Below, piece by piece: positions 20,923 through 33,128 of a stretch of 64,000 nucleotides of DNA. Origin of the DNA: a phage; the sequence record PV806337.1; one strand, given 5' to 3'. A model generated the notes under the pieces. The model worked only from the letters and a program-made list of their open reading frames with translations, ran no database searches and had not been told where the DNA came from. A program made the position numbers and the translations under genes. Position 1 is the first letter of the stretch, and every line of letters begins with the position of its first letter.

Positions 20923-20994
20923 GCCGTCCTAGTATAATTGGTATTATCAAGCCGTAACTGGTGGAAGATGTAGGTTCGAATCCTACGGTCGGTA
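20923..20994 (+). tRNA. tRNA-like gene, anticodon unresolved
   Basis: Canonical T-arm GTAGG-TTCGAAT-CCTAC followed by acceptor 3' strand; 5' acceptor pairs with one mismatch; no clean anticodon stem found by eye. Confidence 0.35.
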
Positions 20995-21496
20995 AGAACT
21001 GGATAACTGATGCTTTTAACATAAAAGCTTCCGAGGTTAGTTGCGCACTGCCTAAACCACGCGGTAGTTGGTTCCAGACTAACCAACCAGTCTGCTGAAT
21101 AGTTTTATTACGATTTAACTATGTCCAGGCTAAAGAAGAACTTTAGAAGGTATTCTAGGATAGTGAAGTTCTTTCTCCATATCGGAGTAGTTTTTCAAGC
21201 TATCCACAAAGTGGGAAATGCTGACATGAGAGATGTCACTAATGGTGCACAATAGCACAGGTAATTCGCGATAACTCCTGTTGAGTAGCAGCAAAAGGTG
21301 GGAAGTCATGACCCCAAGCCTAACCGAGTCCTCAATATACCGCAGGACATAACCACTAAGTCACCCTGACTTAAACTGGAAAATAATAGACGTTACTGTA
21401 TTTTGTCTTGAAATACTTAATGAGTGAGACTTATGACTCTCCCGGTATCGTCTGTATTTTTAAGAGTTTTTACGAGAGTTCTTAAAAATACTTAAA

Positions 21497-21571
21497 CGGG
21501 GTGTAGTCTAAGGGAGAGGCAGGAGTCTTCTAAATTCCTTTATGCAGGTTCGAATCCTGTCACCTCGGCCA
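21497..21571 (+). tRNA. tRNA-Arg (anticodon TCT)
   Basis: Acceptor CGGGGTG/CACCTCG, D-stem GTCT/AGGC, anticodon loop CTTCTAA, T-loop TTCGAAT, encoded CCA. Confidence 0.7.
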
Positions 21572-21605
21572 ATTTTATTAACTGTAACTAAAACAAAGGA
21601 AATAT

Positions 21606-22553
21606 ATGTTTGCTACTAAAAATATGAAAGAACTGACTTCTGAGCAGAAAGTAATTCGTACTATTAAACGTTGGGGTATTGGTGCTGTAGTTGGTTTAGC
21701 AGGTTTAATCCTAGCTTTTAATTCATATACTATTGTTTCTGATGGTACGGTTAAAACCCAAACATTCCTGGGTAAAGTAGACCCTAATCCAGTATTGCCG
21801 GGCTTCCATCTTGTAAACCCGTTTGCATCTTTCGATACTTTTAGTACAAAAGATATTGCTGTAAAATTAGATAAACTTCAGGTTCCTAGCCAGGATAAGT
21901 TTAAATCCACTGTTGACCTGACTGTTATGTTGCAGTTTGATGGTTCTAAAGCACCGATTAACCGTATTAACGCAGGTACTCAGGATCAGGCACTAGACAA
22001 GTATGTAACTGAAAAATTACTGTCTACTATTCGTGAGTTTGGTAAGTCTGTACCTAAAGCACAAGATTTATTTGATGCTAAAATTCAGGCTCAATTGCAA
22101 ACTGCAATTCAACAGGAAGTTGAAGAGTATGCGCGCCCATATGGTTACACAGTTAAGCAGGTATTCCTTCAGGATATTACCTTGCCGCCAGTAATCATGG
22201 AACAGGTACAGAATACCAAAGTTCGTGAAGAGCAAGTTAATGCTGCGAAAGCTGAACTTGCTCGCGTTGAACAGGAAGCACAGCAAAAAGTTAAACAAGC
22301 AGAAGCAGATCGTGAAGCTCGTAACAACCAAGCTATTGCTAATGAACGTGACGCAGATGCTAAACTGTACGCAGCTAAGAAAGAAGCTGAAGCTAACGCC
22401 GCATTGCAACGTACCATTACTCCTGAAATGATTCGTTGGAAACAACTGGAAGTTGAAATGATCCGTGCTCAGAAGTATCAAGGTGGTGTACCTCAGACTG
22501 TGGTAGGTACTGGCTACGATGGTCAAATGATCATGGATATGCGTAACAAGTAA
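21606..22553 (+). CDS. SPFH/band-7 (prohibitin/HflK-like) membrane protein
   Basis: ORF track 315 aa; N-terminal TM segment, SPFH-like core, Ala/Glu/Gln-rich coiled-coil tail. Confidence 0.65.
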   Translation: MFATKNMKELTSEQKVIRTIKRWGIGAVVGLAGLILAFNSYTIVSDGTVKTQTFLGKVDPNPVLPGFHLVNPFASFDTFSTKDIAVKLDKLQVPSQDKFKSTVDLTVMLQFDGSKAPINRINAGTQDQALDKYVTEKLLSTIREFGKSVPKAQDLFDAKIQAQLQTAIQQEVEEYARPYGYTVKQVFLQDITLPPVIMEQVQNTKVREEQVNAAKAELARVEQEAQQKVKQAEADREARNNQAIANERDADAKLYAAKKEAEANAALQRTITPEMIRWKQLEVEMIRAQKYQGGVPQTVVGTGYDGQMIMDMRNK

Positions 22554-22577
22554 TAGTTACACGTAATCTTCGAACCA

Positions 22578-22617
22578 AGCCCGCGTTTCCTACGAGAGCG
22601 CGGGCTTTTCTGTATTT
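22578..22617 (+). terminator. rho-independent terminator after SPFH gene
   Basis: Hairpin AAGCCCGCG...CGCGGGCTT then T-run. Confidence 0.7.
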
Positions 22618-22624
22618 AAGGCAA

Positions 22625-22665
22625 AAGAAAAAGCCCCTTACCTTTCGGCAGGGGCTTTTGTTTTT
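22625..22665. terminator. bidirectional terminator
   Basis: Hairpin AGCCCCTTACC-TTTCGG-CAGGGGCTT with A-run 5' and T-run 3'; lies between convergent gene sets. Confidence 0.65.
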
Positions 22666-22872
22666 GGTTTAGAACCATACTCTCGGTGTACAGCAACCAC
22701 CCATACGGGAGGCCAATCTTGACTGAAAATCTACTCTAGGGGGCAGGATAAGAGTAGGCTTAAAGGCAAAGGGATTGAACGCCGGTATTTGCGTAAACAT
22801 TGCTGGAGAGCAACAACGTGCTACAGGCACTGGGCAGCACGAAACAGATTTTCTGCAACACATATTTCCTCC

Positions 22873-23289
22873 TTAGGAGTTACTACCCCCATTTTGAGCT
22901 TTTGCAACTTGGCTTTGGCAGAAGCTATTAAACTTACCCATAAGTGATACAAGCTGTTTCCCATCCTCTGTCTTTGCGAAGTCTTCGAAAAGGGCTAGTA
23001 CTGCCTGTCCTTCCGCAGAAACCTGCGGTTGTTGGGTTTGTTGCTGAACTTGCTGCTGAGGCACCTGTTGCTGCATTTGTTGAGGCATTTGCGACTGCCC
23101 GCTCATTTGCTGCATCATTTGCATAGGACTCACACTTCCAGGGTTTTGCTGGAGTTGTTGCTGCATCTGTTGCGCTTCTGCTAAACGCTGTTGCAACTGT
23201 TGTAAGTAGGGGTTATCCAGACCCGGAATGGGCTGCTGGGAGCCCATACTTTGATTAAGTCCGTTATTTACAAAACCATATTTACTCAT
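22873..23289 (-). CDS. Gln-rich low-complexity protein
   Basis: ORF track 138 aa; GGAGGAG RBS upstream on reverse strand; long Q/M/P repeats. Confidence 0.55.
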   Translation of the reverse strand: MSKYGFVNNGLNQSMGSQQPIPGLDNPYLQQLQQRLAEAQQMQQQLQQNPGSVSPMQMMQQMSGQSQMPQQMQQQVPQQQVQQQTQQPQVSAEGQAVLALFEDFAKTEDGKQLVSLMGKFNSFCQSQVAKAQNGGSNS

Positions 23290-23310
23290 AATGGGCTCCT
23301 CCCCTTAATA

Positions 23311-24300
23311 TTAAGCCGGCAGTTTAGCCTGCAGACCAGCCAGAGTCTGAGTGATAGCACCAAGACTTAAAGCGATTTGATTAATTACCTGACCGTTAGC
23401 ACCGCTACCCGCAGCGATTGCTTCACGTAGGCGACATGCGTCTAACTCATCCTGGATACGCGCAGTAGTTACACCAGCGATCGCAGTCTGAAGTTCACAG
23501 CAACATTCAGCGATCTGACGTTCCAGAGAGTTCTGGTTAGCACACATCTGAGCCTGAACAGCGGCAAACTGGTTATTAGTTTGTAAAGTCTGCTGGAAAG
23601 CGATCTGTGCAGAATCAAACTTATCTTGTGCACGAGCTATCTGGTTAGCTGCGAAAGATTGATCAATCTGGCGAGAAAGATCGAACTGACCCTGAATAAC
23701 GTTGCGAGTTTCCTGGCAGATCTGATTAGACAGATTAGCACCTGTACCGTAGATCGTAGTTAGTACAGACTGAGTATCACGGCTCTGGTTTTGGGTTGTC
23801 TGGCTAAAACCATTGTTAACTGCGCTTAAAACAGCTCCAGTACCCTGGTTAGCCTCTGTACGAGTAGTGTTGATAGCTGCTAGAATACTAGCGGTATCTT
23901 GGTTCTGAAGTACTGCATCAACTGCGGTACCTTCACCAACTACACCACGTCCACCGAATCCACCGAAACCACCGAATCCGCCGGTTAATAGAGCACCGAT
24001 TAGGATAGCTCCGAATAGTCCCATACCTTCACCACCGAAAGCACCTGCGTTTGCTGGGTAACCACCCAGTAGGCCAGGGAAGCCACTAGTGAATACGTTT
24101 ACTGGTTCTTGCATTTTATGTTTTCCATATTTATGACAATGTTCATCATCGTCATCTTCTTCTTCATCATCGTGTTCACGATGTTTTTCTTCGTAGGCTC
24201 TGACCTTCTCCCACTTTTTCTTATCTGATTCCTCGTGACGGTGCAGTTCTGCTGCAACGCTAGCGACGGTCTCAGGACTCTTAGCTACTTCTTCTGTCAT
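23311..24300 (-). CDS. acidic N-terminus / Gly-rich hydrophobic / Gln-Asn-Thr-rich protein
   Basis: Track ORF 23311-24360; ATG at 24300 has AGGAGG RBS; GGFGGFGGFGG segment. Confidence 0.55.
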   Translation of the reverse strand: MTEEVAKSPETVASVAAELHRHEESDKKKWEKVRAYEEKHREHDDEEEDDDDEHCHKYGKHKMQEPVNVFTSGFPGLLGGYPANAGAFGGEGMGLFGAILIGALLTGGFGGFGGFGGRGVVGEGTAVDAVLQNQDTASILAAINTTRTEANQGTGAVLSAVNNGFSQTTQNQSRDTQSVLTTIYGTGANLSNQICQETRNVIQGQFDLSRQIDQSFAANQIARAQDKFDSAQIAFQQTLQTNNQFAAVQAQMCANQNSLERQIAECCCELQTAIAGVTTARIQDELDACRLREAIAAGSGANGQVINQIALSLGAITQTLAGLQAKLPA

Positions 24301-24507
24301 ATTTTGACACCTCCTAGTATATAGAAAATGTGTGTCTCTTTGATCACTCATCCATAACATATACTTTACACTACCCCAGCGAAAATGTCAAGGGGTCTTT
24401 AAAAATTGCCCCCGGATTTTTAGTGGGGTCACAAATTTTGGTCCTCCCCACTTATCTGCTACCCTTAAGTGCCCTATGATTTTCCTCTAAAAAGTTAAAA
24501 AATTTGA

Positions 24508-24536
24508 TTGCTTGAATGCTAAATTCTCTGTATAAT
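24508..24536 (+). promoter_or_regulatory. T5-type promoter
   Basis: TTGCTT 24508-24513, 17 bp, TATAAT 24531-24536. Confidence 0.7.
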
Positions 24537-24566
24537 ATATCTATAAATTTGAGAGAGGAACCAAAT

Positions 24567-25085
24567 ATGAATGTTGATGAGCTAACACAGCACCTCTTAT
24601 CCAGAGGATTTGATACAGATAAATATCATTGCTGGTTAAGTCCGGAAGGATGGCTAACAGTCCCGTTGTATGACTTCTCCGGGATGTTGCGAGGCTATCA
24701 GACGTATAATCCTTCTGCTCCAAAAGGTCATGGTAAGTGTCCCTTTGAAGCTAAATATTTTACTTATTCTACTACCCAGTGTGTATGGGGACTAGAAACT
24801 CTCAATGGAGATGAAAAAGTAGTATTGATCGCTGAATCTGTATTTAAGGCAGTTGCGCTACATAACGCTGGTTATCCAGCCCTGGCAATGTTAGGTTCTT
24901 CTCCAGGAAAAGCGTTATTAAAGCAACTGAAATTATTACCTTTTAAATTGGTAGCTGTCGGAGACAACGATCCTGCGGGTGAAAAATTTGCTAGAAAATT
25001 AAACGGCTTTGTTTCTCCCGTAGATGTGGATGAGATGTCTACCGAAAACTTGAAAAATTTTCTTGCTATGAAGCTAAATTTCTAA
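24567..25085 (+). CDS. Toprim-domain protein (primase-like)
   Basis: In-frame ATG 24567 after promoter 24508-24536; LIAESVF..VAVGDNDPAGEKFA resembles DnaG Toprim. Confidence 0.55.
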   Translation: MNVDELTQHLLSRGFDTDKYHCWLSPEGWLTVPLYDFSGMLRGYQTYNPSAPKGHGKCPFEAKYFTYSTTQCVWGLETLNGDEKVVLIAESVFKAVALHNAGYPALAMLGSSPGKALLKQLKLLPFKLVAVGDNDPAGEKFARKLNGFVSPVDVDEMSTENLKNFLAMKLNF

Positions 25086-25091
25086 TATAAT
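25063..25091 (+). promoter_or_regulatory. T5-type promoter embedded in 3' end of Toprim-like gene, driving tRNA cluster
   Basis: TTGCTA 25063-25068, 17 bp, TATAAT 25086-25091; tRNA-Ser starts at 25107. Confidence 0.65.
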
Positions 25092-25106
25092 ATATCTTAT
25101 AAATTC

Positions 25107-25195
25107 GGAAGAATAGCATAACGGTATTGCAGCAGATTGCTAATCTGTCGGTTTGAAATATAGCCTTGTGGGTTCGATTCCCACTTCTTCCGCCA
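25107..25195 (+). tRNA. tRNA-Ser (anticodon GCT)
   Basis: Acceptor GGAAGAA/TTCTTCC, anticodon loop TTGCTAA, long variable arm, T-loop TTCGATT, CCA. Confidence 0.75.
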
Positions 25196-25201
25196 AATTC
25201 T

Positions 25202-25279
25202 GGTTCTCAAGCTCATATGGTATGAGCACCCGGCTCATAACCGGAAGGTACGTAGGTTCGAATCCTCGGGGAGCCACCA
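25202..25279 (+). tRNA. tRNA with CAT anticodon (Met/fMet/Ile2 type)
   Basis: Acceptor GGTTCTC/GGGAGCC, D-stem GCTC/GAGC, anticodon loop CTCATAA, T-loop TTCGAAT with weak T-stem, CCA. Confidence 0.5.
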
Positions 25280-25299
25280 ACTTAATTAGGGGATTACAA

Positions 25300-25488
25300 G
25301 TGGAATTATACATAGTTTATGTTGTATTTATTCAAGATAGAGAATACCCGGATGAATATAAAAAAGGATATAGGTTAGCCAGAGCTACCTCTGAGGCCCA
25401 AGCTATGGATAAAGTGGCAGATTATATGATTATGGTAGAAAACGTATACTATATCGACTCCCTTGAAGCCTCAAAAGTAATTGACTAA
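25300..25488 (+). CDS. hypothetical small protein
   Basis: GTG 25300 downstream of tRNAs; 5' part of track ORF 25153-25488 overlaps two tRNAs and is rejected. Confidence 0.35.
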   Translation: MELYIVYVVFIQDREYPDEYKKGYRLARATSEAQAMDKVADYMIMVENVYYIDSLEASKVID

Positions 25489-25497
25489 GGAGACTAT

Positions 25498-25683
25498 ATG
25501 TCCAAGTTTCAAGAACTCAAGCAAGAGCTAGAAGAATGTGCCTGCCCTGAGTGTAGGGGAATTGGTGAAAGTTCTGATGCAGAAGCAGGAGATACTTTTT
25601 GCAATATCTGGATTTGTTCAAATTGCAACGGTACAGGTATTAATCCTAACTGCGGTGTTTCCCTAGATATTGAACGAGGATAA
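25498..25683 (+). CDS. Cys-rich putative zinc-binding small protein
   Basis: ORF track 61 aa; CxC..CPEC..CSNCNG pattern. Confidence 0.5.
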   Translation: MSKFQELKQELEECACPECRGIGESSDAEAGDTFCNIWICSNCNGTGINPNCGVSLDIERG

Positions 25684-25784
25684 TACCTGTGAAACTAAAA
25701 GATTATTATATTGGTTGGTTTGTGGGACTAGTAGTAGGATTTTCACTAGGCTATAATATGTATCAACTAATAAACTGATTACAT

Positions 25785-25861
25785 GGGGGTGTAATCGAAT
25801 TGGCATAGGTACTGGACTTAAAATTCAGGTTTTGTGGGTTCGAATCCCACCACCCCTACCA
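25785..25861 (+). tRNA. tRNA with TAA anticodon (Leu by anticodon) but short variable arm
   Basis: Acceptor GGGGGTG/CACCCCT, anticodon stem CTGGA/TTCAG, loop CTTAAAA, T-arm GTGGG-TTCGAAT-CCCAC, A73, CCA; variable region only 5 nt. Confidence 0.55.
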
Positions 25862-25876
25862 ACTTAAGGAAATAAG

Positions 25877-26044
25877 ATGTATAGACATCCACCTCCGCCA
25901 ACACGTCGTTCTAGGGAAGTCATCCTTATGGAATTGACTAAAAACTTCAAGGCAACTCTTGAAGATAGAGATTTAGGCACGGATGAAGACATTGATTTTA
26001 TTTGTAGACTATTAAAGATGAAACTGGAGAAACAACATGGCTAA
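25877..26044 (+). CDS. hypothetical small protein
   Basis: 55-codon frame read by eye; AAGGAAA RBS. Confidence 0.4.
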   Translation: MYRHPPPPTRRSREVILMELTKNFKATLEDRDLGTDEDIDFICRLLKMKLEKQHG

Positions 26045-26243
26045 TCCTGAAATTACCGCACAACGTTTCATGCTTAAAGGCATGATTGCTGAAGCAGGTA
26101 TGACTCAAGAGGTTGCAGACTTTCATAAGCAATTTCTTGATATTATAACTCTAGCTAAAGAGACTGGAGAAAGAGAACACGGTGCAGCAATTATGGCTAT
26201 ATCTCTTATTAGCCTAGACTTAGCTGAAGAATCTGGAATTTAG
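26037..26243 (+). CDS. hypothetical protein
   Basis: ORF track 68 aa. Confidence 0.5.
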   Translation: MANPEITAQRFMLKGMIAEAGMTQEVADFHKQFLDIITLAKETGEREHGAAIMAISLISLDLAEESGI

Positions 26244-26273
26244 CTCCTCCAAACAGAATTTTTAAAAATGTAC

Positions 26274-26303
26274 TTGCCTTTTGCTTTAAATTTCTGATAT
26301 AAT
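26274..26303 (+). promoter_or_regulatory. T5-type promoter
   Basis: TTGCCT 26274-26279, 18 bp, TATAAT 26298-26303. Confidence 0.6.
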
Positions 26304-26333
26304 AGTTATATAAATTGATGAAGGAGTTAACTA

Positions 26334-26609
26334 ATGCAAAATCGTGTTGTAGCAACTGGTATTGAAAGTGCAATCTGTAAATCCTGGGAAGGCTGGGAAG
26401 GTGAGATTGAATGGCTTTATTTCTATGATGTAGAACTTCTACCGGAAGTTAAAGCTAAATGTGTTGAAGCTGGCATGGCTCCAGATGCAAAAGCTGATAT
26501 TGATATTTCAATGTCTGAACTTAAAGGTCGTGTAATTACTGTTAGTGATGAGGGCGAAGAAGTCTTCGAACTTCCATTCTCCTTAACTGTCACTCCTAAG
26601 TTCGACTAA
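26334..26609 (+). CDS. hypothetical protein
   Basis: ORF track 91 aa after promoter 26274-26303. Confidence 0.55.
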   Translation: MQNRVVATGIESAICKSWEGWEGEIEWLYFYDVELLPEVKAKCVEAGMAPDAKADIDISMSELKGRVITVSDEGEEVFELPFSLTVTPKFD

Positions 26610-26645
26610 CTAATACAGCATTGGGTAAGTTCTTTAAAATTTGAC

Positions 26646-26674
26646 TTGCTCAGTGCCTTAAAACTTGGTATAAT
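26646..26674 (+). promoter_or_regulatory. T5-type promoter driving tRNA-Tyr/Glu/Trp/Phe group
   Basis: TTGCTC 26646-26651, 17 bp, TATAAT 26669-26674. Confidence 0.65.
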
Positions 26675-26737
26675 AGTTATCTAATTTGGAAACATATTTA
26701 AAAGTGTTTAAACTAGTATTTGAATACTTTTAAATAT

Positions 26738-26828
26738 GTTGGATTAGTATCGTAGAGGTAGCGAAGCAGACTGTAAATCTGCCGACTCGGAAGGGTCTCG
26801 GGTGGTTCGACTCCATCATCCAACACCA
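26738..26828 (+). tRNA. tRNA-Tyr (anticodon GTA)
   Basis: Acceptor GTTGGAT/ATCCAAC, anticodon stem GCAGA/TCTGC, loop CTGTAAA, long variable arm, T-loop TTCGACT, CCA. Confidence 0.8.
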
Positions 26829-26835
26829 AATTTAA

Positions 26836-26912
26836 GTCCTGTTAGACAAACTGGTAAAGTCACTACCCTTTCAAGGTAGGATTTGCGGGTTCGATCCCCG
26901 CACAGGACGCCA
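26836..26912 (+). tRNA. tRNA-Glu (anticodon TTC)
   Basis: Acceptor GTCCTGT/ACAGGAC, anticodon stem CTACC/GGTAG, loop CTTTCAA, T-arm GCGGG-TTCGATC-CCCGC, CCA. Confidence 0.8.
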
Positions 26913-26920
26913 TTTTCTGC

Positions 26921-26997
26921 ATTCCTAGAGTGTTACTGGACAGCATGTCGGTCTCCAAAACCGTACGGTCTAGGTTCGAGTCCTAGTAGGTTTGCCA
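26921..26997 (+). tRNA. tRNA-Trp (anticodon CCA)
   Basis: Anticodon loop CTCCAAA, T-arm CTAGG-TTCGAGT-CCTAG, CCA; acceptor stem has two U-U mismatches. Confidence 0.55.
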
Positions 26998-27003
26998 AAA
27001 TTT

Positions 27004-27078
27004 GCACCTTTAGCTGAGATGGATTAGCGCTTGCCTGAAGAGCTTGAGAGGTTGGATCGTTACCAACGGGGTGCTCCA
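27004..27078 (+). tRNA. tRNA-Phe-like (anticodon GAA), atypical
   Basis: Acceptor GCACCTT/GGGGTGC, anticodon loop CTGAAGA, non-canonical T-loop ATCGTTA, CCA; anticodon stem has two U-U mismatches. Confidence 0.45.
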
Positions 27079-27095
27079 AATTGAAGGAGCTGCTG

Positions 27096-27368
27096 ATGCA
27101 TCCTGAAAACTTCTTTATTTACTGCGCTGATAAGTCGCTGAAACGTAGAATTAACAAAGTCTATCATTATAGTGCTAGTCAACAGCCTTATGTATACGCT
27201 TTTGACGGTGATCACATTCCACTAGAACAATTATCTTGTGATTACATGATATTGAAGAACTTTGATGAGACGAAGATCTCGAGCGTTCACAATCGACAGA
27301 ATCCATTAACGTGGAAATATAAGAAGAAAAAGAAAGGCATCAAATTCTTAAAAAATGTAGTTGCTTAG
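27096..27368 (+). CDS. hypothetical protein
   Basis: ATG 27096 with GAAGGAG RBS, inside track ORF 27081-27368. Confidence 0.5.
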   Translation: MHPENFFIYCADKSLKRRINKVYHYSASQQPYVYAFDGDHIPLEQLSCDYMILKNFDETKISSVHNRQNPLTWKYKKKKKGIKFLKNVVA

Positions 27369-27389
27369 TTTCCAAAAGTTCTGTATAAT
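27361..27389 (+). promoter_or_regulatory. T5-type promoter driving tRNA-Cys
   Basis: TTGCTT 27361-27366, 17 bp, TATAAT 27384-27389. Confidence 0.7.
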
Positions 27390-27437
27390 AATTACATAAA
27401 TTGAACTGGAGAAGCAACATGACAGAACAAGATAAAC

Positions 27438-27513
27438 CGACCGTTGGCTGAATGGCTTAGGCGAAGGATTGCAAATCCTTTTTATGTGAGTTCAAATCTC
27501 ATGCGGTCGTCCA
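27438..27513 (+). tRNA. tRNA-Cys (anticodon GCA)
   Basis: Acceptor CGACCGT/GCGGTCG, anticodon stem AAGGA/TCCTT, loop TTGCAAA, T-loop TTCAAAT, CCA. Confidence 0.8.
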
Positions 27514-27534
27514 AATTACTAAAGGAAAGAAGTA

Positions 27535-28053
27535 GTGCATACAAAAGTTTTTGATAGTTTGGTAAAGAAAGGCGTTGTTACTAACGAGCCCTTCTATATA
27601 ACCGCAGAACTAATCCAGAGATTTATGGAAGAATATATAAATCTTTCAGGAACCAATGGTAATACCAAAAAGAATACAAATACTATGTATTCGAGAAAAC
27701 TTGCTGCACTTTCCTTTATAAAGTTTAAGCAGGAAAATAAACTTCCTATTTCTGAAGGTTTTGTATACTGTATTAGTAATCCTGCATGGAAAAATCAGTA
27801 TAAAATAGGTATGAGTCAAAATCCAAAAGAGAGATTAGCTCAATATCAGACTTATTCCCCTTATAGGGATTATAAGTTAGAGCATTGGTCTTTTTGGTTT
27901 GACAAACGAAAAGGTGAAAAACTAATTCACCAGTATTTCAAAGATTTAAAAGAACATGAGTGGTTTAGTATAAATTCTAGGGATCTTAGTAAATATCTAG
28001 AACGTATTAACTCTAGTTCTGACTTATATGGTTCCTTAGCTCTAATTGGTTAG
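27535..28053 (+). CDS. T5orf172 (GIY-YIG-like) domain protein
   Basis: ORF track 172 aa; FVYCISNP..YKIGMS..RL motif. Confidence 0.6.
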   Translation: MHTKVFDSLVKKGVVTNEPFYITAELIQRFMEEYINLSGTNGNTKKNTNTMYSRKLAALSFIKFKQENKLPISEGFVYCISNPAWKNQYKIGMSQNPKERLAQYQTYSPYRDYKLEHWSFWFDKRKGEKLIHQYFKDLKEHEWFSINSRDLSKYLERINSSSDLYGSLALIG

Positions 28054-28107
28054 AGCGGCATCTTGTTAAGTTGAGGGTTGCTGGTTCGAATCCTGCAGGA
28101 ACCGCCA
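28030..28107 (+). tRNA. tRNA-Asn (anticodon GTT)
   Basis: Acceptor GGTTCCT/AGGAACC perfect, D-arm GCTC-TAATTGGTTA-GAGC, anticodon loop TTGTTAA, T-loop TTCGAAT, CCA. Confidence 0.7.
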
Positions 28108-28209
28108 AATTCTGTGTAGAGTTAAGTAAACCGGTAGCCAACCAGCTATCATTGCTGACATCGAATTCAGCCATAGATACCATTTTCGTTAATAACTGAG
28201 GAAACAAGC

Positions 28210-28395
28210 ATGTCCAAGAATGTAATTGCGCAGCTAGAAGTTCATCGTGATAGCACTATCAACAATATTGAAGTTGAGAAGAAATACATAGAAGAACTTA
28301 AACATGATATACTGGTAAGTCTCAACCGTCTTAATGTACGAAAAGAGTTTCTTAAAGAACTTAATGCAGCTATTGAAAAACTCAAAGCTGAGTAA
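28210..28395 (+). CDS. hypothetical coiled-coil small protein
   Basis: ORF track 61 aa. Confidence 0.5.
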   Translation: MSKNVIAQLEVHRDSTINNIEVEKKYIEELKHDILVSLNRLNVRKEFLKELNAAIEKLKAE

Positions 28396-28404
28396 ATGAA
28401 TTAT

Positions 28405-28481
28405 GCGACCGGGGCTGGCTTGGTAATGGTACTCCCCTGTCACGGGAGAGAATGTGGGTTCAAATCCCATCGGTCGCGCCA
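28405..28481 (+). tRNA. tRNA-Asp (anticodon GTC)
   Basis: Acceptor GCGACCG/CGGTCGC, anticodon stem CTCCC/GGGAG, loop CTGTCAC, T-loop TTCAAAT, CCA. Confidence 0.8.
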
Positions 28482-28498
28482 AATAAGGTAGGTTAGCT

Positions 28499-28657
28499 AT
28501 GGAACGTAGGGAGTTTACTCCAGAAGAGATAGAGCAGATAAAAGAATCTGCTATGAAAAATGCTAGAATATCTCTGTCACTGGAAGGTATCATTATTAGT
28601 GATGTAAACTTTGAAAAAATCAAAGCCATAGCTGATGAACTGGAAAAAGTAATTTAA
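28499..28657 (+). CDS. hypothetical small protein
   Basis: 52-codon frame read by eye between tRNA-Asp and tRNA-Lys. Confidence 0.4.
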   Translation: MERREFTPEEIEQIKESAMKNARISLSLEGIIISDVNFEKIKAIADELEKVI

Positions 28658-28658
28658 T

Positions 28659-28734
28659 ACATCCATAGCTCAATGGTTAGAGCTACCGCCTCTTAAGCGG
28701 AGGGTTCTAGGTTCAAGTCCTAGTGGGTGTACCA
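28659..28734 (+). tRNA. tRNA-Lys (anticodon CTT)
   Basis: Acceptor ACATCCA/TGGGTGT, D-arm GCTC/GAGC, anticodon loop CTCTTAA, T-arm CTAGG-TTCAAGT-CCTAG, CCA. Confidence 0.6.
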
Positions 28735-28760
28735 AATTAAACTAGCACGAGAAATATGCT

Positions 28761-29108
28761 ATGATTAATGCTAAAGAAGAATTGTTACTTGCCCTAAAGA
28801 ATACTAATTCTGAAGTTAAGTGTATTAAGATAGAATTCGGTTATTATGGGGATAAAGAAGTTTGGGTATTACCCGTAGGTTATACAGAAAAAGATATTGA
28901 AGATTTTCTAGATAATCTAGACTTTAAATATGATTCTGGTTTCGGCGGACAATTGCTTTATGGTAACGTATGGTTTACCGATGGAACTTGGTTAGAACGT
29001 GGTGAATATGATGGTTCTGAATGGTGGGAATATAAGACTACACCAGCAATCCCAGAAGAATGCCGAACAATTAATGGTGAAGTAGATCGTACTTTACTAT
29101 TAAATTAA
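28761..29108 (+). CDS. hypothetical protein
   Basis: ORF track 115 aa. Confidence 0.55.
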   Translation: MINAKEELLLALKNTNSEVKCIKIEFGYYGDKEVWVLPVGYTEKDIEDFLDNLDFKYDSGFGGQLLYGNVWFTDGTWLERGEYDGSEWWEYKTTPAIPEECRTINGEVDRTLLLN

Positions 29109-29230
29109 CAAAATTTCAGTGCAGAACACGGAGCTAGCAATTCGGAAGTGCTGACTCATGATAAGCTGCCTATGTACTTGCGAAGCGGTCGTGTCCAAGA
29201 CTCGGACTCTTGCACTGAAAACAATCAAAC

Positions 29231-29352
29231 ATTCTAGCGTGGTTGATGGGGAAACCAGCTTGGCGAGGGCAGAAGCTCGTTCGATTCGAGTGAAAGAATG
29301 GTTCTCGTAAGTCCGCACAAGTGATAACAGGTTCGAGTCCTGTCTAGAATGA
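29231..29352 (+). ncRNA. 122-nt tRNA-like structured RNA (acceptor-like helix, D-arm, two T-arm hairpins)
   Basis: ATTCTAG (29231-29237) pairs perfectly with CTAGAAT (29346-29352); D-arm TGGT/ACCA; T-arm hairpins GCTCG-TTCGATT-CGAGT and ACAGG-TTCGAGT-CCTGT; no CCA; no ORF. Confidence 0.3.
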
Positions 29353-29500
29353 CACTATAAAGTTTACTTATTATGTAGGTTCCGATAGACCGGCGGGTCT
29401 ATTCTGGCATTTAAGAGAGGTCTCGCAAACTTCTTTGTCAGCCGTGGGGTTGGTAGCCTCCAGGTGGCCTACACAATAAGTAAATTTATTAAAAATTCAT

Positions 29501-29529
29501 TTGCTATTCTGCTTTATTATCTGTATAAT
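29501..29529 (+). promoter_or_regulatory. T5-type promoter
   Basis: TTGCTA 29501-29506, 17 bp, TATAAT 29524-29529. Confidence 0.7.
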
Positions 29530-29561
29530 ATATTTTATAAAGTGAAGAGAAGGAAAGCAAA

Positions 29562-29720
29562 ATGAAACACAAGATAGCTCAAGTTTTTATGGCATTATGG
29601 TGTATACCAATAGCTATAACAGCATTTAATCTAGATACTTTTACTATAGAAGAAAAATGTATCGGATTAGTTAGCGGTTTTATTATGCTGGGCTTATCTT
29701 TGCTGTGGTTAAAGAACTAA
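29562..29720 (+). CDS. small membrane protein
   Basis: 52-codon frame after promoter 29501-29529 and GAGAAGGAAAG RBS; hydrophobic. Confidence 0.45.
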   Translation: MKHKIAQVFMALWCIPIAITAFNLDTFTIEEKCIGLVSGFIMLGLSLLWLKN

Positions 29721-29724
29721 TATT

Positions 29725-29802
29725 CTCCGTGTAGCTCAGTTTGGCCAGAGCGTTTCGTTTGGGGCGATAGGGTCGGGGGTTCAAATCCTCCCACGGAGAC
29801 CA
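29725..29802 (+). tRNA. tRNA-Pro (anticodon TGG)
   Basis: Acceptor CTCCGTG/CACGGAG, D-arm GCTC/GAGC, anticodon loop TTTGGGG, T-loop TTCAAAT, CCA. Confidence 0.7.
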
Positions 29803-29808
29803 AACAAT

Positions 29809-29886
29809 TGCGGGTTAGATCTCTGGTAGAGATCGCTAGTCTCATAAGCTAGAAAGAGGTAGGTTCGATTCCTGCACCCGCTTCCA
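29809..29886 (+). tRNA. tRNA with CAT anticodon (Met/fMet/Ile2 type)
   Basis: D-arm GATC/GATC, anticodon stem CTAGT/GCTAG, loop CTCATAA, T-loop TTCGATT, CCA. Confidence 0.7.
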
Positions 29887-29906
29887 CTTTAATAGAGGAT
29901 TTCGAA

Positions 29907-30074
29907 ATGAAAGTATTTCGATTAGTAGTAAGTGACAAACGTTTAGGTAAGAATACCTCAAAATCCTTACTTGCTCATTATGGAAAAGATGAGAAAGAAG
30001 TAATGGCGGAGTTTGGGATTAATCACCCTTACTTGAAAGTTCACTCTATTAAAGAAGTATATAATGGTTACTAA
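29907..30074 (+). CDS. hypothetical small protein
   Basis: 55-codon frame read by eye between tRNA-CAT and tRNA-Lys. Confidence 0.4.
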   Translation: MKVFRLVVSDKRLGKNTSKSLLAHYGKDEKEVMAEFGINHPYLKVHSIKEVYNGY

Positions 30075-30075
30075 T

Positions 30076-30154
30076 AGATCGCTAGCTCAATAGGTTTAGT
30101 AGCATCCGACTTTTAATCGGAAGGTTCTGGGTTCGAGTCCCAGGCGATCTACCA
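30076..30154 (+). tRNA. tRNA-Lys (anticodon TTT)
   Basis: Acceptor AGATCGC/GCGATCT perfect, anticodon stem TCCGA/TCGGA, loop CTTTTAA, T-loop TTCGAGT, CCA. Confidence 0.8.
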
Positions 30155-30172
30155 ATTTCAAGAAAAACGCAG

Positions 30173-30201
30173 TTGCTTGATGCTTAATTTCTTGTTATAA
30201 T
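30173..30201 (+). promoter_or_regulatory. T5-type promoter driving ORF-free segment and tRNA-Ala
   Basis: TTGCTT 30173-30178, 17 bp, TATAAT 30196-30201. Confidence 0.7.
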
Positions 30202-30438
30202 ATTTATATAAATTGATGAGGAGAAATCCTCATCATAGTTCACTAAGGTATTAGCTCGACCTAGGACTGGCTACCAAAAAGCACGATCCCTACGATTTGG
30301 AGAAGTTCTAGATTAGTCCACTAGATTCAGCGGCAACTGAATAGTGTATTGGGTTTGCGAGATGACGCAGTTCCTTCCGCTCGAAGCGAAGGTGCTGTAG
30401 TTACGCCGAGCTAATAGCCTTAGTAAACTAAAGAATTT

Positions 30439-30517
30439 GGGGGATGGGTCTGCTAGGGGTGGACACCTCACTTGCACCGAGGACATCAGAACGATTCGAA
30501 TTCGTTATCCTCCACCA
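30439..30517 (+). tRNA. tRNA-Ala (anticodon TGC)
   Basis: Acceptor GGGGGAT/ATCCTCC, D-stem GTCT/GGAC, anticodon loop CTTGCAC, T-arm AACGA-TTCGAAT-TCGTT, CCA. Confidence 0.6.
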
Positions 30518-30522
30518 AATAC

Positions 30523-30599
30523 GCGTGATTGATGGAATTGGCATACATACCGTCCTTAGAAGTCGGGTTTTGAGGGTTCGAATCCCTTGTCACGCACCA
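30523..30599 (+). tRNA. tRNA with TAG anticodon (Leu by anticodon) but short variable arm
   Basis: Acceptor GCGTGAT/GTCACGC, anticodon loop CTTAGAA, T-arm GAGGG-TTCGAAT-CCCTT, A73, CCA; 5-nt variable region. Confidence 0.5.
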
Positions 30600-30724
30600 A
30601 ATTTGATGGTCAGAGTAAATTAAACCTACTATCTCGGTTGAGCTGTTTTAATGGGTTCGAATCCCAGCGAGGCGTAACTGCCTGGTGTGATAGAGGCATC
30701 ATTCCACTAACATTGGAAAAACTA

Positions 30725-30955
30725 ATGAAACGAAAATTAAAAAAGTCTTATATAATTAAGATAAATAAGCTACGAAGTAGGGCAAAAGGATGGCCACTTC
30801 GAATATTAATTGCGGATAACCATACTAGATACCATGCGGAACAACGTCATTACAAACAGTGGGAGTCATACTGCCGCTCAAAAGCAGGTCGTTTAGATGG
30901 ATCTTATGAGTTTCTATTTGGTAAGAAGCCTACTAGAGTAGCTTTAGGTAATTAA
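30725..30955 (+). CDS. small basic protein
   Basis: In-frame ATG inside track ORF 30587-30955; upstream part carries a tRNA T-arm-like motif. Confidence 0.4.
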   Translation: MKRKLKKSYIIKINKLRSRAKGWPLRILIADNHTRYHAEQRHYKQWESYCRSKAGRLDGSYEFLFGKKPTRVALGN

Positions 30956-30959
30956 TACT

Positions 30960-31050
30960 TGGAAGAGCAAATCGAATTGGCGACGAAAACCGCTTGGAAA
31001 GTGGCTGACTGGTAAAACGGCTTGAGAGTTCAAATCTCTCCTCTTCCGCC
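30960..31050 (+). tRNA. tRNA-Ser (anticodon GGA)
   Basis: Anticodon loop TTGGAAA, long variable arm, T-arm GAGAG-TTCAAAT-CTCTC, acceptor 3' CTCTTCC, CCA. Confidence 0.6.
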
Positions 31051-31062
31051 AAACAATTTATA

Positions 31063-31157
31063 TGGTAGGTCAATCCAATGGCTGGCGTGGGACTCCGACT
31101 TGAAATCGGTTGATCGTAGTGATACGGTGTAAGGGTTCGATCCCCTTACCTACCTCC
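31063..31157 (+). tRNA. tRNA-Ser (anticodon TGA)
   Basis: Acceptor GGTAGGT/ACCTACC perfect, anticodon stem CCGA/TCGG, loop CTTGAAA, long variable arm, T-loop TTCGATC, CCA. Confidence 0.7.
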
Positions 31158-31523
31158 AAATCTTGAAGTATGCCGGAATCGGTAGACGGGGCTGCCTAAA
31201 AGGTTTATAGGGAACATCCACTCCCTGCAACATACCTCATAAAGCGGCTGAGATAAATGGTCTATCTCGTGAAGGTTCAAGTCCTTCTGCTTCTTGATAT
31301 ATCTATGGCTCAAAGTGTAACGGTGCTATTTGATGCTCTTAGTAAGACTTTCCCGACATGCGTTCGGGAGTAAGCTGCTAAGGCTAGAGTAGAAGAGTTT
31401 CGGAGAGCCGCCACAATTGAAAATTCGTACTCGTCTTGAGCTGCGCGCAATAGGAGATAACTTGATTAGTATTCTAGAACATGCTAATTGAGGATGGTTT
31501 CGCTAACCCTGCGAGTTTTCAAT

Positions 31524-31600
31524 TGTGGCTATATCATAATTGGTTAATGATCCTGATTGTGAATCAGGCCTATGTGGATTCGAATTCCACTAGCCACCCC
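31524..31600 (+). tRNA. tRNA-His (anticodon GTG)
   Basis: Acceptor GTGGCTA/TAGCCAC, D-arm TCAT/ATGA, anticodon stem CCTGA/TCAGG, loop TTGTGAA, T-loop TTCGAAT, CCA. Confidence 0.8.
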
Positions 31601-31626
31601 AAATTAACTTAAACAGGAAATAAAAT

Positions 31627-31821
31627 ATGGCTGATTTCTGCAAACAATGCTCCATTGATATGTGGGGCAGAGATACTGGTGATCTTTCTGGTTTGATTAC
31701 AGAAGCTGAAGTTAAAGAAGGCTACGGTGCAGTTGTAGTTTGCGAAGGCTGTGGAGTTATTCGAGTAGATCATGAAGGCAAACGTTTAGAAGAACCTGGG
31801 CCAACTACTCTAATTCCATAG
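31627..31821 (+). CDS. putative zinc-ribbon small protein
   Basis: ORF track 64 aa; CKQC ... CEGC pairs. Confidence 0.55.
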   Translation: MADFCKQCSIDMWGRDTGDLSGLITEAEVKEGYGAVVVCEGCGVIRVDHEGKRLEEPGPTTLIP

Positions 31822-31833
31822 AGTAATAATTAT

Positions 31834-31909: not shown

Positions 31910-31915
31910 AACAAT

Positions 31916-31991: not shown

Positions 31992-31999
31992 AATAATAA

Positions 32000-33127: not shown

Positions 33128-33128
33128 T

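What the first reader, a model, noticed from the sequence alone, without database searches (positions are those of the whole stretch)
25785..25861. tRNA with Leu-type anticodon UAA but a class I (short) variable arm
By hand folding, the anticodon stem CTGGA/TTCAG encloses loop CTTAAAA (anticodon UAA, reads UUA), the discriminator is A73, and the variable region is only ~5 nt. Bacterial tRNA-Leu normally has a long variable arm. This may be an unusual phage Leu isoacceptor, a tRNA charged with a different amino acid, or a misfold on my part. It is not an ochre suppressor, which would need anticodon UUA.
Basis: seen in the sequence. Interest (0 to 1): 0.55.

Follow-up and report, generated by a model that had tools for sequence, protein, structure and literature searches.

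The report
Short-armed leucine tRNA of T5-like phage
This is a real phage tRNA gene that reads the leucine codon UUA but lacks the long extra arm that bacterial leucine tRNAs normally carry; it keeps every other feature the host's leucine-charging enzyme is known to need, and the same short-armed design turns out to be common in many unrelated phages.

Summary
Window 25785-25861(+) is a 77-nt tRNA with anticodon UAA, a 5-nt variable loop (GUUUU), A73 and an encoded CCA (ARAGORN; Rfam tRNA 57.4 bits against a cut-off of 29). The window is a T5-like phage (98% identical to Tequintavirus genomes). The gene is at least 99% identical in 293 phage records, where it is annotated tRNA-Leu. A second Leu tRNA (UAG, 30523-30599) has the same short-arm design; the phage's Ser and Tyr tRNAs keep long arms.

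Best explanation: a working leucine tRNA charged by host LeuRS. It keeps the published E. coli LeuRS determinants: A73, A14, A15-U48, G18G19, A20a and the 3-bp D stem with an 11-nt loop. That D-arm signature occurs in 7/7 host tRNALeu genes and 0/27 other host tRNAs. An anticodon-masked isotype model trained only on long-arm Leu tRNAs calls it Leu. UUA and CUA are the phage's commonest Leu codons and sit at invariant Leu positions of NrdA.

It is not a T5 oddity. At least 185 short-arm Leu tRNAs occur in 120 mostly unrelated viral contigs, with full covariation, against 1 of 124 in cellular genomes. Charging was not shown experimentally, and I found no paper describing this class in phages.

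The parts
25785..25861 (+). Whole gene: short-arm (class I) tRNA-Leu(UAA), 77 nt including the encoded 3' CCA
   Evidence: ARAGORN; Rfam RF00005 57.4 bits; at least 99% identical in 293 phage records, annotated tRNA-Leu
25785..25791 (+). Acceptor stem 5' strand GGGGGUG; pairs with 25851-25857 (CACCCCU), giving a G1.U72 wobble as in host tRNALeu(UAA) leuZ and tRNALeu(GAG) leuU
25794..25810 (+). Leu-type D arm AUC-GAAUUGGCAUA-GGU (positions 10-25): 3-bp stem, unpaired G13/A22, A14, A15, G18G19, C20, A20a, U21
   Evidence: The signature '3-bp stem + RAAUYGG.A.A' is in 7/7 host tRNALeu genes, 0/27 other host tRNAs, and only the 2 Leu tRNAs among 21 phage tRNAs
25812..25828 (+). Anticodon arm CUGGA-CUUAAAA-UUCAG; it contains the A36-A37-A38 motif that the identity review names as a determinant for i6A37-dependent modification of tRNALeu(UAA)
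   Evidence: motif statement in PMC9976931
25819..25821 (+). Anticodon UAA (reads UUA, and UUG by wobble)
25829..25833 (+). Five-nucleotide variable loop GUUUU; its last base is U48, partner of A15 in the Levitt pair
   Evidence: U48 is invariant in 138 canonical viral relatives
25834..25850 (+). T arm GUGGG-UUCGAAU-CCCAC with U54, U55, C56 and A58, the partners of G18, G19 and U54:A58
25858..25858 (+). Discriminator A73
   Evidence: A73 in 181/185 viral short-arm Leu tRNAs
30523..30599 (+). Paralog: short-arm tRNA-Leu(UAG), 77 nt, with the same D loop GAAUUGGCAUA, the same variable loop GUUUU, A73 and CCA
   Evidence: classified Leu by the anticodon-masked model with a margin of 8.9-12.2 log units

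Best explanation
It is a functional, phage-encoded leucine tRNA of class I (short-arm) architecture. After T5-like infection it is cut out of a longer early transcript. No promoter or terminator signal stands out above chance in the 1.9 kb around it, and it lies co-oriented between two small ORFs. The host leucyl-tRNA synthetase then charges it with leucine. LeuRS does not read the anticodon or the long arm. It reads A73 and the shape of the D/T-loop corner: A14, the A15-U48 Levitt pair, G18G19 placed by a 3-bp D stem with an 11-nt loop, and A20a. The phage tRNA keeps all of these. It then decodes UUA (and UUG), the most frequent leucine codon of this AT-rich phage. Its UAG paralog decodes CUA and related codons in the same way. 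Shown here: the gene, its fold, the determinant set, its specificity, the codon usage and the wide distribution of the design. Inferred: charging by LeuRS with leucine, use on the ribosome, and processing from a longer transcript. The tRNA belongs to a coherent short-arm tRNALeu lineage that is widespread in unrelated, tRNA-rich phages and rare in cellular genomes.
For: Fold and anticodon. Phage identity: 98% identical to Tequintavirus genomes. Conservation: at least 99% identical in 293 records. Published E. coli Leu identity set, with the long arm dispensable: PMC9976931 and PMC6614811 introduction; every listed nucleotide determinant except those within the arm is present. The D-arm signature is in 7/7 host Leu genes, 0/27 other host tRNAs and 2/21 phage tRNAs. 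In viral loci it is in 147/185 short-arm Leu tRNAs against 2/1083 other class I tRNAs, and none of those 2 has A73. Isotype model with the anticodon masked, the variable region dropped and Leu trained on long-arm genes only: the target is called Leu by 2.2 log units, or 4.3 with motif-free training; the paralog by 8.9 and 12.2; control accuracy is 17/21. Codon usage in 51 long ORFs: UUA 27.3% and CUA 19.5% of Leu codons. NrdA: invariant Leu columns L119 and L518 are UUA, and L385 (96% Leu) is CUA; mean Leu fraction is 0.58 at UUA columns against 0.59 at CUG columns. Family: 185 short-arm Leu tRNAs (175 distinct) in 120 viral loci, with A73 in 181 and U48 in 180, while Ser (98/99) and Tyr (40/40) stay long-armed. 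99% of cells are paired and 20/20 pairs show compensatory changes, against 34-43% for slid controls. No ORF in the window long enough to be a LeuRS matches an aaRS family.
Against: No aminoacylation, tRNA-seq or charging data for this tRNA could be found or run. E. coli LeuRS failed to charge the only bacterial type I tRNALeu tested so far, S. coelicolor tRNALeu(CAA), and those authors describe EcLeuRS as charging only type II. That tRNA does have C48 rather than U48. One reported E. coli element, the position of the unpaired base 47n in the arm, cannot exist here, and the LeuRS C-terminal domain contact with 47f-47i is lost. The isotype-model margin for the target is modest (2.2-4.3 log units over Tyr). 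Overall sequence similarity to host tRNALeu is not elevated. The tRNA content of T5-like phages varies between isolates, so the gene may be dispensable in the laboratory.
Confidence: 0.8

Rival explanations
1. The arm loss is an adaptation, not merely tolerated: the short-arm tRNALeu is still charged by LeuRS but escapes a host factor, such as a defence nuclease or toxin, that recognises tRNALeu through its long variable arm. This would keep leucine decoding alive during infection. It extends the main explanation rather than excluding it.
For: The short-arm form is strongly enriched in viruses: 12/120 pattern-matched loci against 1/120 cellular, p = 0.003. It makes up 19 of 58 tRNA-Leu genes in viral loci with at least 10 tRNAs and 0 of 45 in loci with 1-2 tRNAs. 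It is a coherent lineage with its own core states (U21, A9) rather than sporadic deletions. Phage tRNAs are known to rescue infection from tRNA-cleaving defences (PMC10264068, PMC11555353, PMC12409363). Human SLFN11 is reported to select type II tRNAs (title of a reference cited in PMC13056530).
Against: I found no bacterial factor that recognises the long arm of tRNALeu. The one bacterial Schlafen characterised cleaves anticodon arms of class I tRNAs (Lys, Met, Ala, Val, Phe, Ile), not type II tRNAs. 45 of 120 viral loci carry both short- and long-arm Leu tRNAs. Ser and Tyr tRNAs never lose the arm, which the synthetases' requirement for it explains without invoking any defence.
Confidence: 0.15
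2. The tRNA is not used for translation. It would act as a decoy or sponge for a host tRNA-binding factor, or as a processing or regulatory element in the early transcript, and need not be aminoacylated.
For: The tRNA complement of T5-like phages varies between isolates. No direct evidence of charging exists. Several neighbouring tRNA-like genes in the cluster are aberrant.
Against: A decoy would not need A73, U48, A15, A20a and an encoded CCA to be nearly invariant across relatives that are only 62% identical. It would also not need the anticodons to be restricted to the six Leu anticodons. The two anticodons in this phage match its two commonest Leu codons.
Confidence: 0.07
3. The tRNA is charged by a synthetase other than LeuRS, for example PheRS because A35-A36 are shared with tRNAPhe, or another A73-accepting enzyme. 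UUA would then be partly recoded during infection.
For: Class I shape plus A73 is shared with many isotypes. Anticodon UAA differs from the Phe anticodon GAA only at position 34.
Against: The PheRS determinants listed in the review (G34, U20, U59) are absent: the target has U34, C20 and A59. There is no G3:U70 for AlaRS and no long arm for SerRS. The UAG paralog shares the same body. In the viral scan the pattern allowed GAA, yet 0 of 123 matching tRNAs had it. UUA occupies invariant Leu columns of NrdA. The anticodon-masked model ranks Leu first.
Confidence: 0.03
4. The cloverleaf is a misfold or chance match, and the true RNA, if any, has another register or anticodon.
For: MFE folding does not give a cloverleaf, and its energy is not better than that of shuffles (z = -1.2).
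Against: Two independent tRNA detectors agree. The Rfam score is 28 bits above the gathering score. All 20 pairs covary in 138 relatives. The reverse strand shows nothing.
Confidence: 0.01

Closest known systems
E. coli (bacterial) type II tRNALeu, especially tRNALeu(UAA) leuZ
   Same: Anticodon UAA with A36A37A38; A73; G1.U72; U8:A14; A15-U48; a 3-bp D stem with unpaired G13/A22; an 11-nt D loop GAAUUGG-N-A-N-A (9 of 11 loop bases identical to host GAAUUGGUAGA); and U54, U55, C56, A58.
   Different: No long variable arm: 5 nt against 13-15 nt. U21 instead of G21, A9 instead of G9, A10:U25 and C12:G23 instead of G:C pairs. Overall identity to host Leu tRNAs is only about 0.5-0.6, with no BLAST match to any E. 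coli chromosome, so it was not recently captured from the host.
Streptomyces coelicolor type I tRNALeu(CAA) (PMC6614811)
   Same: A natural bacterial-world tRNALeu with a 5-nt variable loop that coexists in one cell with type II tRNALeu and a single LeuRS. Five nucleotides was found to be the shortest loop compatible with good charging.
   Different: The S. coelicolor tRNA has variable loop ACAGC (C48). It is charged by a LeuRS that uses C74 rather than A73 and needs a particular leucine-specific-domain linker, and E. coli LeuRS does not charge it. The phage tRNA has U48, A15 and A73, the E. coli-type determinants, and would have to be charged by E. coli/Salmonella LeuRS.
Animal mitochondrial tRNALeu(UUR)
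   Same: Class I tRNALeu with anticodon UAA whose identity rests mainly on A73 and A14.
   Different: The mitochondrial tRNA has a floppy anticodon arm and a dedicated mitochondrial LeuRS that contacts the anticodon stem. The phage tRNA is a fully canonical cloverleaf with bacterial D/T-loop elements.
Engineered minimal E. coli tRNALeu lacking the variable arm (Larkin et al. 2002; Asahara et al. 1998, as summarised in PMC9976931)
   Same: Arm-less E. coli tRNALeu variants remain LeuRS substrates as long as A73 and the D/T-loop tertiary contacts are intact. The phage tRNA is the natural counterpart of that design.
   Different: Those are laboratory constructs assayed in vitro. This one is a natural, conserved gene, and its charging has not been measured.
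Other T5 tRNAs with demonstrated roles (T5 tRNALys, tRNAThr, tRNAAsn, tRNATyr against PARIS, PrrC and retron Eco7)
   Same: Same gene cluster and phage; these are phage copies of host tRNAs that differ from the host versions.
   Different: Those differ from the host tRNAs by point changes, mostly in the anticodon loop. Here a whole structural domain is missing, and no defence system is known to target tRNALeu in this way.

Membership tests
tRNA (Rfam RF00005) | Covariance-model score above the curated gathering score over the full model | tested here: met
   57.4 bits against 29, model positions 1-71 of 71; ARAGORN concurs
E. coli-type tRNALeu (LeuRS substrate) | Leucine anticodon (NAG or YAA) | tested here: met
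   UAA at 25819-25821
E. coli-type tRNALeu (LeuRS substrate) | Discriminator A73 | tested here: met
   A at 25858
E. coli-type tRNALeu (LeuRS substrate) | A14 (U8:A14) and the A15-U48 trans Levitt pair | tested here: met
   U8, A14, A15 and U48 are all present. In the host, A15:U48 together with A73 occurs only in tRNALeu
E. coli-type tRNALeu (LeuRS substrate) | G18G19 and A20a positioned by a 3-bp D stem with an 11-nt loop | tested here: met
   D arm AUC-GAAUUGGCAUA-GGU. The signature is in 7/7 host Leu genes and 0/27 other host tRNAs
E. coli-type tRNALeu (LeuRS substrate) | D/T-loop tertiary pairs G18:U55, G19:C56, U54:A58 | tested here: met
   T loop UUCGAAU supplies U54, U55, C56 and A58. 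This is sequence-level only; the 3D contacts were not modelled
E. coli-type tRNALeu (LeuRS substrate) | Long variable arm (type II architecture), including the unpaired base 47n | tested here: not met
   The variable region is 5 nt. The review states that the arm's sequence and folding are not correlated with leucylation and that arm-less variants stay active, so this fails the structural definition but not necessarily the functional one
E. coli-type tRNALeu (LeuRS substrate) | Leucylation by LeuRS | not testable with these tools
Natural type I tRNALeu (S. coelicolor CAA type) | Five-nucleotide variable loop in a tRNA with a Leu anticodon, coexisting with type II tRNALeu and one LeuRS | tested here: met
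   5-nt loop. Host type II tRNALeu genes are present. No aaRS-like ORF in the window
Natural type I tRNALeu (S. coelicolor CAA type) | C48-type variable loop (ACAGC) and dependence on a Streptomyces-type LeuRS | tested here: not met
   The target has GUUUU with U48, and the host is enterobacterial. So it is a type I tRNALeu but not of the S. coelicolor identity type
Viral short-arm tRNALeu lineage (defined here) | Leu anticodon + 5-6-nt variable loop + A73 + U48 + 17-nt Leu-type D arm, typically with U21 | tested here: met
   The target has all of these. The consensus of 138 distinct members shows A14, A15, G18, A22, U48 and A73 invariant and U21 at 80%. Named members: Aeromonas phage AhP_Mru1 and Streptomyces phage Teutsch
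tRNAPhe (rival isotype) | G34, A35, A36, U20, U59 | tested here: not met
   U34, C20 and A59. The anticodon-masked model does not place Phe among its top three isotypes
Ochre suppressor tRNA | Anticodon UUA | tested here: not met
   The anticodon is UAA

The most novel reading that the evidence does not exclude
Short-arm tRNALeu is a distinct lineage that spreads horizontally among phages. It makes up roughly a third of leucine tRNAs in tRNA-rich phage loci. It would be maintained by selection because shedding the long arm lets the tRNA escape a host factor that recognises tRNALeu by that arm, while ordinary bacterial LeuRS, including E. coli LeuRS (currently described as type II-only), still charges it.
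Probability: 0.15. Interest if true: 0.75.

Novelty: new member of a known kind. Interest (0 to 1): 0.5.

Why it matters
Textbooks and recent primary literature treat bacterial tRNALeu as type II. A 2019 study presented S. coelicolor as the first cell in which one LeuRS serves both tRNA types, and described E. coli LeuRS as type II-only. If this tRNA is charged in infected cells, then every T5-type infection of E. coli or Salmonella is a second, much more accessible example. It would also be a natural confirmation of the in vitro finding that E. coli LeuRS ignores the arm. The contrast within single phage genomes, where Leu loses the arm and Ser and Tyr never do, is a clean natural experiment on which synthetases need the arm. 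For annotation, it means that 75-78-nt tRNAs with Leu anticodons in phage genomes should be accepted as tRNA-Leu rather than flagged as errors. The family also provides many natural sequences for studying what the long arm contributes, and compact Leu-accepting scaffolds for engineering.

Tried and rejected
(1) Whole-sequence nearest-neighbour comparison of each phage tRNA with 34 E. coli tRNAs, anticodon and variable region excluded. Only 5 of 20 phage tRNAs were nearest to their own isotype, so the method fails its control and was not used.
(2) Thermodynamic folding. The MFE is not a cloverleaf and z = -1.2, which says nothing either way.
(3) BLAST of the 77-mer against 5,426 E. coli genomes. 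There was no chromosomal match, only 23-nt T-arm matches to plasmid 'tRNA-OTHER' genes, so no evidence of recent host capture.
(4) First recoding test, using tblastn against an Aeromonas T5-like phage. It gave only 615 aligned codons and was underpowered, so it was discarded and replaced by the NrdA test.
(5) First isotype model. Its Leu training set was enriched for the search motif taken from the target, which is circular, so I repeated it with motif-free training.
(6) The idea that bacterial Schlafen nucleases select type II tRNAs. The one characterised cleaves class I tRNAs.
(7) Literature. Eight full-text searches found no description of short-arm tRNALeu in phages. The classic T5 tRNA papers (PMC283332, PMC432352) are not held, and the 1980s T5 tRNA sequencing papers are outside the library, so an earlier description cannot be excluded. 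The Schlafen paper's supplements are not held.
(8) E. coli loci were not exported to the sandbox, so their tRNAs were passed through an alignment call.

Full report
**What is there.** The window is part of a T5-like phage. The 2.2 kb around the finding is 98.2% identical to Escherichia phage SUT_E1520 and 98.1% identical to T5_ev212 (Demerecviridae, Tequintavirus), and 491 phage records match it. ARAGORN finds 21 tRNA genes between 21.5 and 33.4 kb, all on the + strand, and Rfam finds 23. The finding is one of them: tRNA-Leu(taa), 25785-25861, 77 nt. Rfam's tRNA model matches it end to end at 57.4 bits against a gathering score of 29 (E = 9e-10), with the same register.

ARAGORN's structure has these parts:
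- a 7-bp acceptor stem with G1.U72;
- a 3-bp D stem enclosing an 11-nt loop;
- anticodon stem CUGGA/UUCAG around loop CUUAAAA;
- a 5-nt variable loop GUUUU;
- a normal T arm, A73 and an encoded CCA.

Minimum-free-energy folding alone does not recover the cloverleaf (z = -1.2). The support for the fold is therefore the covariance model and comparative data, not energy.

**It is not alone in the phage.** The only other Leu-anticodon tRNA in the window, tRNA-Leu(tag) at 30523-30599, is also 77 nt. It has the same D loop (GAAUUGGCAUA), the same variable loop (GUUUU), A73 and CCA. The phage's Ser tRNAs (89 and 95 nt) and its Tyr tRNA (91 nt) keep long arms. The three tRNAs that only Rfam detects are 72-75 nt, so the window holds no long-arm Leu tRNA. 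The target differs by one base (C20/U20) from the copy in T5_ev212, is at least 99% identical in 293 phage records, and is annotated there as tRNA-Leu.

**Which synthetase?** The 2023 identity review lists these elements for E. coli LeuRS: A73, the A15-U48 Levitt pair, G18G19, A20a, and the tertiary pairs G18:U55, G19:C56 and U54:A58. A14 is given as a further E. coli element in the introduction of PMC6614811. The review states that neither the anticodon nor the long arm matters, and that variants lacking the arm stay active if A73 and the D/T contacts are intact.

I fetched 34 E. coli K-12 tRNA genes covering all 20 isotypes and all five Leu isoacceptors and tabulated these features. All seven host Leu genes have a 3-bp D stem, unpaired R13/A22 and the loop RAAUYGG-N-A-N-A. 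None of the other 27 host tRNAs has this. Among the 21 phage tRNAs, only the two short-arm Leu tRNAs do.

The target has A73, U8, A14, A15, U48, G18G19 in register, A20a, and U54/U55/C56/A58. It even shares the G1.U72 wobble with host tRNALeu(UAA). Only the arm is missing, and with it the '47n' element and the arm's contact with the LeuRS C-terminal domain.

Determinants of the rival enzymes are absent. The target has U34, C20 and A59 where PheRS needs G34, U20 and U59. It has no G3:U70 for AlaRS and no long arm for SerRS.

**An isotype-model test with controls.** A simple nearest-host-tRNA comparison failed its own control (5 of 20 correct) and was dropped. I then built position-specific models for the 20 isotypes from ARAGORN-labelled tRNAs in the fetched viral and cellular loci. 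The anticodon was masked, the variable region was reduced to base 48, and the Leu model was trained on long-arm Leu tRNAs only.

On the window's 21 tRNAs, the anticodon-implied isotype ranks first in 17. Both short-arm tRNAs are called Leu: the target by 2.2 log units over Tyr and the paralog by 8.9. Many training Leu sequences had been fetched with a motif taken from the target, so I repeated the test with motif-free training (86 sequences). The margins rose to 4.3 and 12.2, with the same control accuracy. The margin for the target is real but modest.

**Do UUA and CUA mean leucine in this phage?** In 51 long ORFs of the window, UUA (27.3%) and CUA (19.5%) are the two commonest Leu codons. 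These are exactly the codons that the two phage tRNAs read. From established knowledge, CUG dominates in E. coli and the UAA and UAG isoacceptors are minor.

I aligned the phage's NrdA (9413-11848) with 25 homologs at 38-52% identity. Of the three invariant Leu columns, two (L119, L518) are encoded by UUA, and a column that is 96% Leu (L385) is encoded by CUA. UUA codons sit in columns as Leu-rich (0.58) as those of CUG (0.59). The numbers are small (7 UUA, 6 CUA), but they argue against any recoding.

**The design is widespread in viruses.** I scanned IMG/VR for the fixed-spacing pattern Leu-type D loop + U33-N-A-R-R + 5-nt variable loop + GGTTCRA. All 123 matching tRNAs carry Leu anticodons, and none has GAA, although the pattern allowed it.

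In those 1.15 Mb, ARAGORN finds 185 short-arm Leu tRNAs, 175 of them distinct. A73 is present in 181, U48 in 180, a 5-nt variable loop in 167, and all six Leu anticodons occur. In the same loci 98 of 99 Ser tRNAs and 40 of 40 Tyr tRNAs are long-armed. Forty-five loci carry both short- and long-arm Leu tRNAs.

The 62 short-arm Leu tRNAs that the pattern did not select show the same features (A73 60/62, U48 59/62). Of 1,083 other class I tRNAs in those loci, only 2 carry the D-arm signature, and none has it together with A73.

Only 6 of the 120 loci share any protein similarity with this window, at 27-48% identity. The carriers are therefore mostly unrelated to T5. Named examples:
- Aeromonas phage AhP_Mru1 (Demerecviridae) has three 77-nt Leu tRNAs with long Ser and Tyr.
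- Streptomyces phage Teutsch (Stanwilliamsviridae) has 75- and 76-nt Leu tRNAs.

**Covariation.** Across 138 distinct 74-nt members (median pairwise identity 62%), 99.0% of cells in the 20 helix pairs are standard pairs, and all 20 pairs show changes on both sides. Controls give 34-43% pairing with the partner slid by 1-3 columns and 63.6% after shuffling. U8, A14, A15, G18, A22, U33, A35, U48, C56, A58 and A73 are invariant. One caveat: ARAGORN detection favours paired stems, and positions 13-19 were fixed by the search pattern in about two thirds of the set.

**Viruses against cells.** A pattern with a variable gap accepts both arm lengths, so it samples the two forms without bias. It gave 12 short-arm loci among the first 120 viral loci and 1 among the first 120 cellular loci (Fisher p = 0.003).

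The single cellular case is an Actinomycetales MAG tRNA-Leu(CAA). That is the same kind of organism and the same anticodon as the published S. coelicolor type I tRNALeu, but it has the phage-type D loop and U48.

In the viral sample the short-arm form is concentrated in tRNA-rich loci (this assumes the 12 re-used loci are L016-L027):

| Sample | tRNAs in locus | Short-arm Leu | Long-arm Leu |
|---|---|---|---|
| Viral | 10 or more | 19 | 39 |
| Viral | 3-9 | 7 | 62 |
| Viral | 1-2 | 0 | 45 |
| Cellular | all | 1 | 123 |

**A lineage, not sporadic deletions.** For 122 of 150 short-arm Leu tRNAs, the nearest Leu tRNA outside their own locus (variable region and anticodon excluded) is another short-arm one; 37% would be expected if the two classes were mixed. 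Short- and long-arm Leu tRNAs in the same locus are only 61% identical at the median. The two classes differ at core positions:
- position 21: U in 73% of short-arm tRNAs, G in 83% of long-arm ones;
- position 9: A in 37% against 2%;
- pairs 10:25 and 12:23.

The target has all the short-arm states (A9, A10:U25, C12:G23, U21). It is not a recent derivative of a host gene either: there is no E. coli chromosomal BLAST match, and identity to host Leu tRNAs is only about 0.5-0.6.

**Local anatomy.** The gene lies between two co-oriented small ORFs, 25498-25683 and 25877-26044; the first corresponds to the CDS annotated 'antitermination protein Q' in T5_ev212. Promoter-like sites are no more frequent than chance (7 against 5.5 expected), and there is no + strand terminator. 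I infer release from a longer transcript by the host's tRNA-processing enzymes. No ORF in the window is long enough to encode a LeuRS and matches an aaRS family: the four ORFs of at least 450 aa are NrdD, NrdA and two without a Pfam match.

**Comparison with what is known.** Type I tRNALeu is known from animal mitochondria and from S. coelicolor tRNALeu(CAA). The S. coelicolor case differs in identity rules: it has C48, it depends on C74 rather than A73, and it needs a special LeuRS linker. E. coli LeuRS did not charge it, and its authors describe E. coli LeuRS as type II-only and their system as the first with one LeuRS for both types.

The phage tRNAs instead keep the E. coli-type determinants. 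They look like the natural counterpart of the engineered arm-less E. coli tRNALeu variants that remain active. I therefore file the target as a tRNALeu that fails the structural 'type II' criterion and meets every testable functional determinant, that is, a new member of the known type I tRNALeu kind.

The gene itself is already in GenBank as 'tRNA-Leu' in hundreds of phages. I found no paper that notes its short arm or the viral family. The 1970s-80s T5 tRNA literature is outside the library, so an earlier description cannot be excluded.

**What remains open.** Charging by LeuRS is inferred, not shown. Why phages favour the short-arm form is also unexplained. The permissive reason is clear: LeuRS, unlike SerRS and bacterial TyrRS, does not need the arm. 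A positive advantage, such as escape from a factor that reads the arm, is speculative. The one bacterial Schlafen nuclease studied does not support it.

Noticed in passing
window 30523-30599 (+): The phage's second Leu tRNA (anticodon UAG) is also 77 nt, with the same D loop and the same 5-nt variable loop GUUUU as the target. Both Leu tRNAs of the phage therefore lack the long arm.
   Followed up: yes
window 27004-27078 (+): A tRNA detected only by Rfam (31.5 bits), with anticodon GAA; it is annotated tRNA-Phe in T5_ev212. Its T arm is aberrant (GGUUGGAUCGUUACCAAC, no GUUC T loop), and ARAGORN does not call it.
   Followed up: no
window 20923-20997 (+): A tRNA-like gene detected only by Rfam (35.5 bits). 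It is annotated just 'tRNA', without an isotype, in T5_ev212, and its 3' end is not CCA.
   Followed up: no
window 29809-29886 (+): tRNA-Met(CAT) with a U1:U72 mismatch at the top of the acceptor stem and U73. T5_ev212 annotates it as tRNA-fMet, so it is probably a phage initiator tRNA with an unusual 1:72 mismatch.
   Followed up: no
window 33129-33205 (+) and 26921-26997 (+): tRNA-Ile(GAT) lacks G18G19 in its D loop and has T loop UUUAAAU. tRNA-Trp has two acceptor-stem mismatches and scores only 36.3 bits. Several tRNAs of the cluster deviate from canonical tertiary elements.
   Followed up: no
window 21497-33377 compared with L001 (T5_ev212) 4924-16848: The tRNA repertoire differs between close relatives. 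T5_ev212 carries Ala, Gly and an extra Ser gene, with Ala and two Ser genes flanking its Leu(UAG) gene; ARAGORN finds no Ala, Gly or third Ser in this window.
   Followed up: partly
window 9413-11848 (+) and 5567-7414 (-): The phage encodes a class Ia ribonucleotide reductase large subunit (NrdA) and an anaerobic NrdD. Some close NrdA homologs in related phages are about 1,100-1,150 aa long and carry a LAGLIDADG (PF14528) insertion, i.e. inteins. The window's copy is intein-free.
   Followed up: partly
L333 232-306 (MAG, Actinomycetales bacterium M60): This is the only short-arm tRNA-Leu in the cellular sample. It is a tRNA-Leu(CAA) with D loop GAAUUGGCAUA identical to the T5-like one and with U48, unlike the published S. 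coelicolor type I tRNALeu(CAA) loop ACAGC. It may be phage-derived.
   Followed up: partly
L364 13904-13978 and 14801-14879 (Aeromonas phage AhP_Mru1): This distant T5-family phage carries two tRNAs that its record annotates as 'suppressor tRNA', alongside three short-arm Leu tRNAs.
   Followed up: no
viral loci L016-L135 (family level): Short-arm Leu tRNAs differ from long-arm ones at core positions: U21 instead of G21, A9 tolerated, and relaxed 10:25 and 12:23 pairs. G1.U72 is frequent (52 of 138). This looks like a compensatory re-packing of the tRNA core after arm loss.
   Followed up: partly
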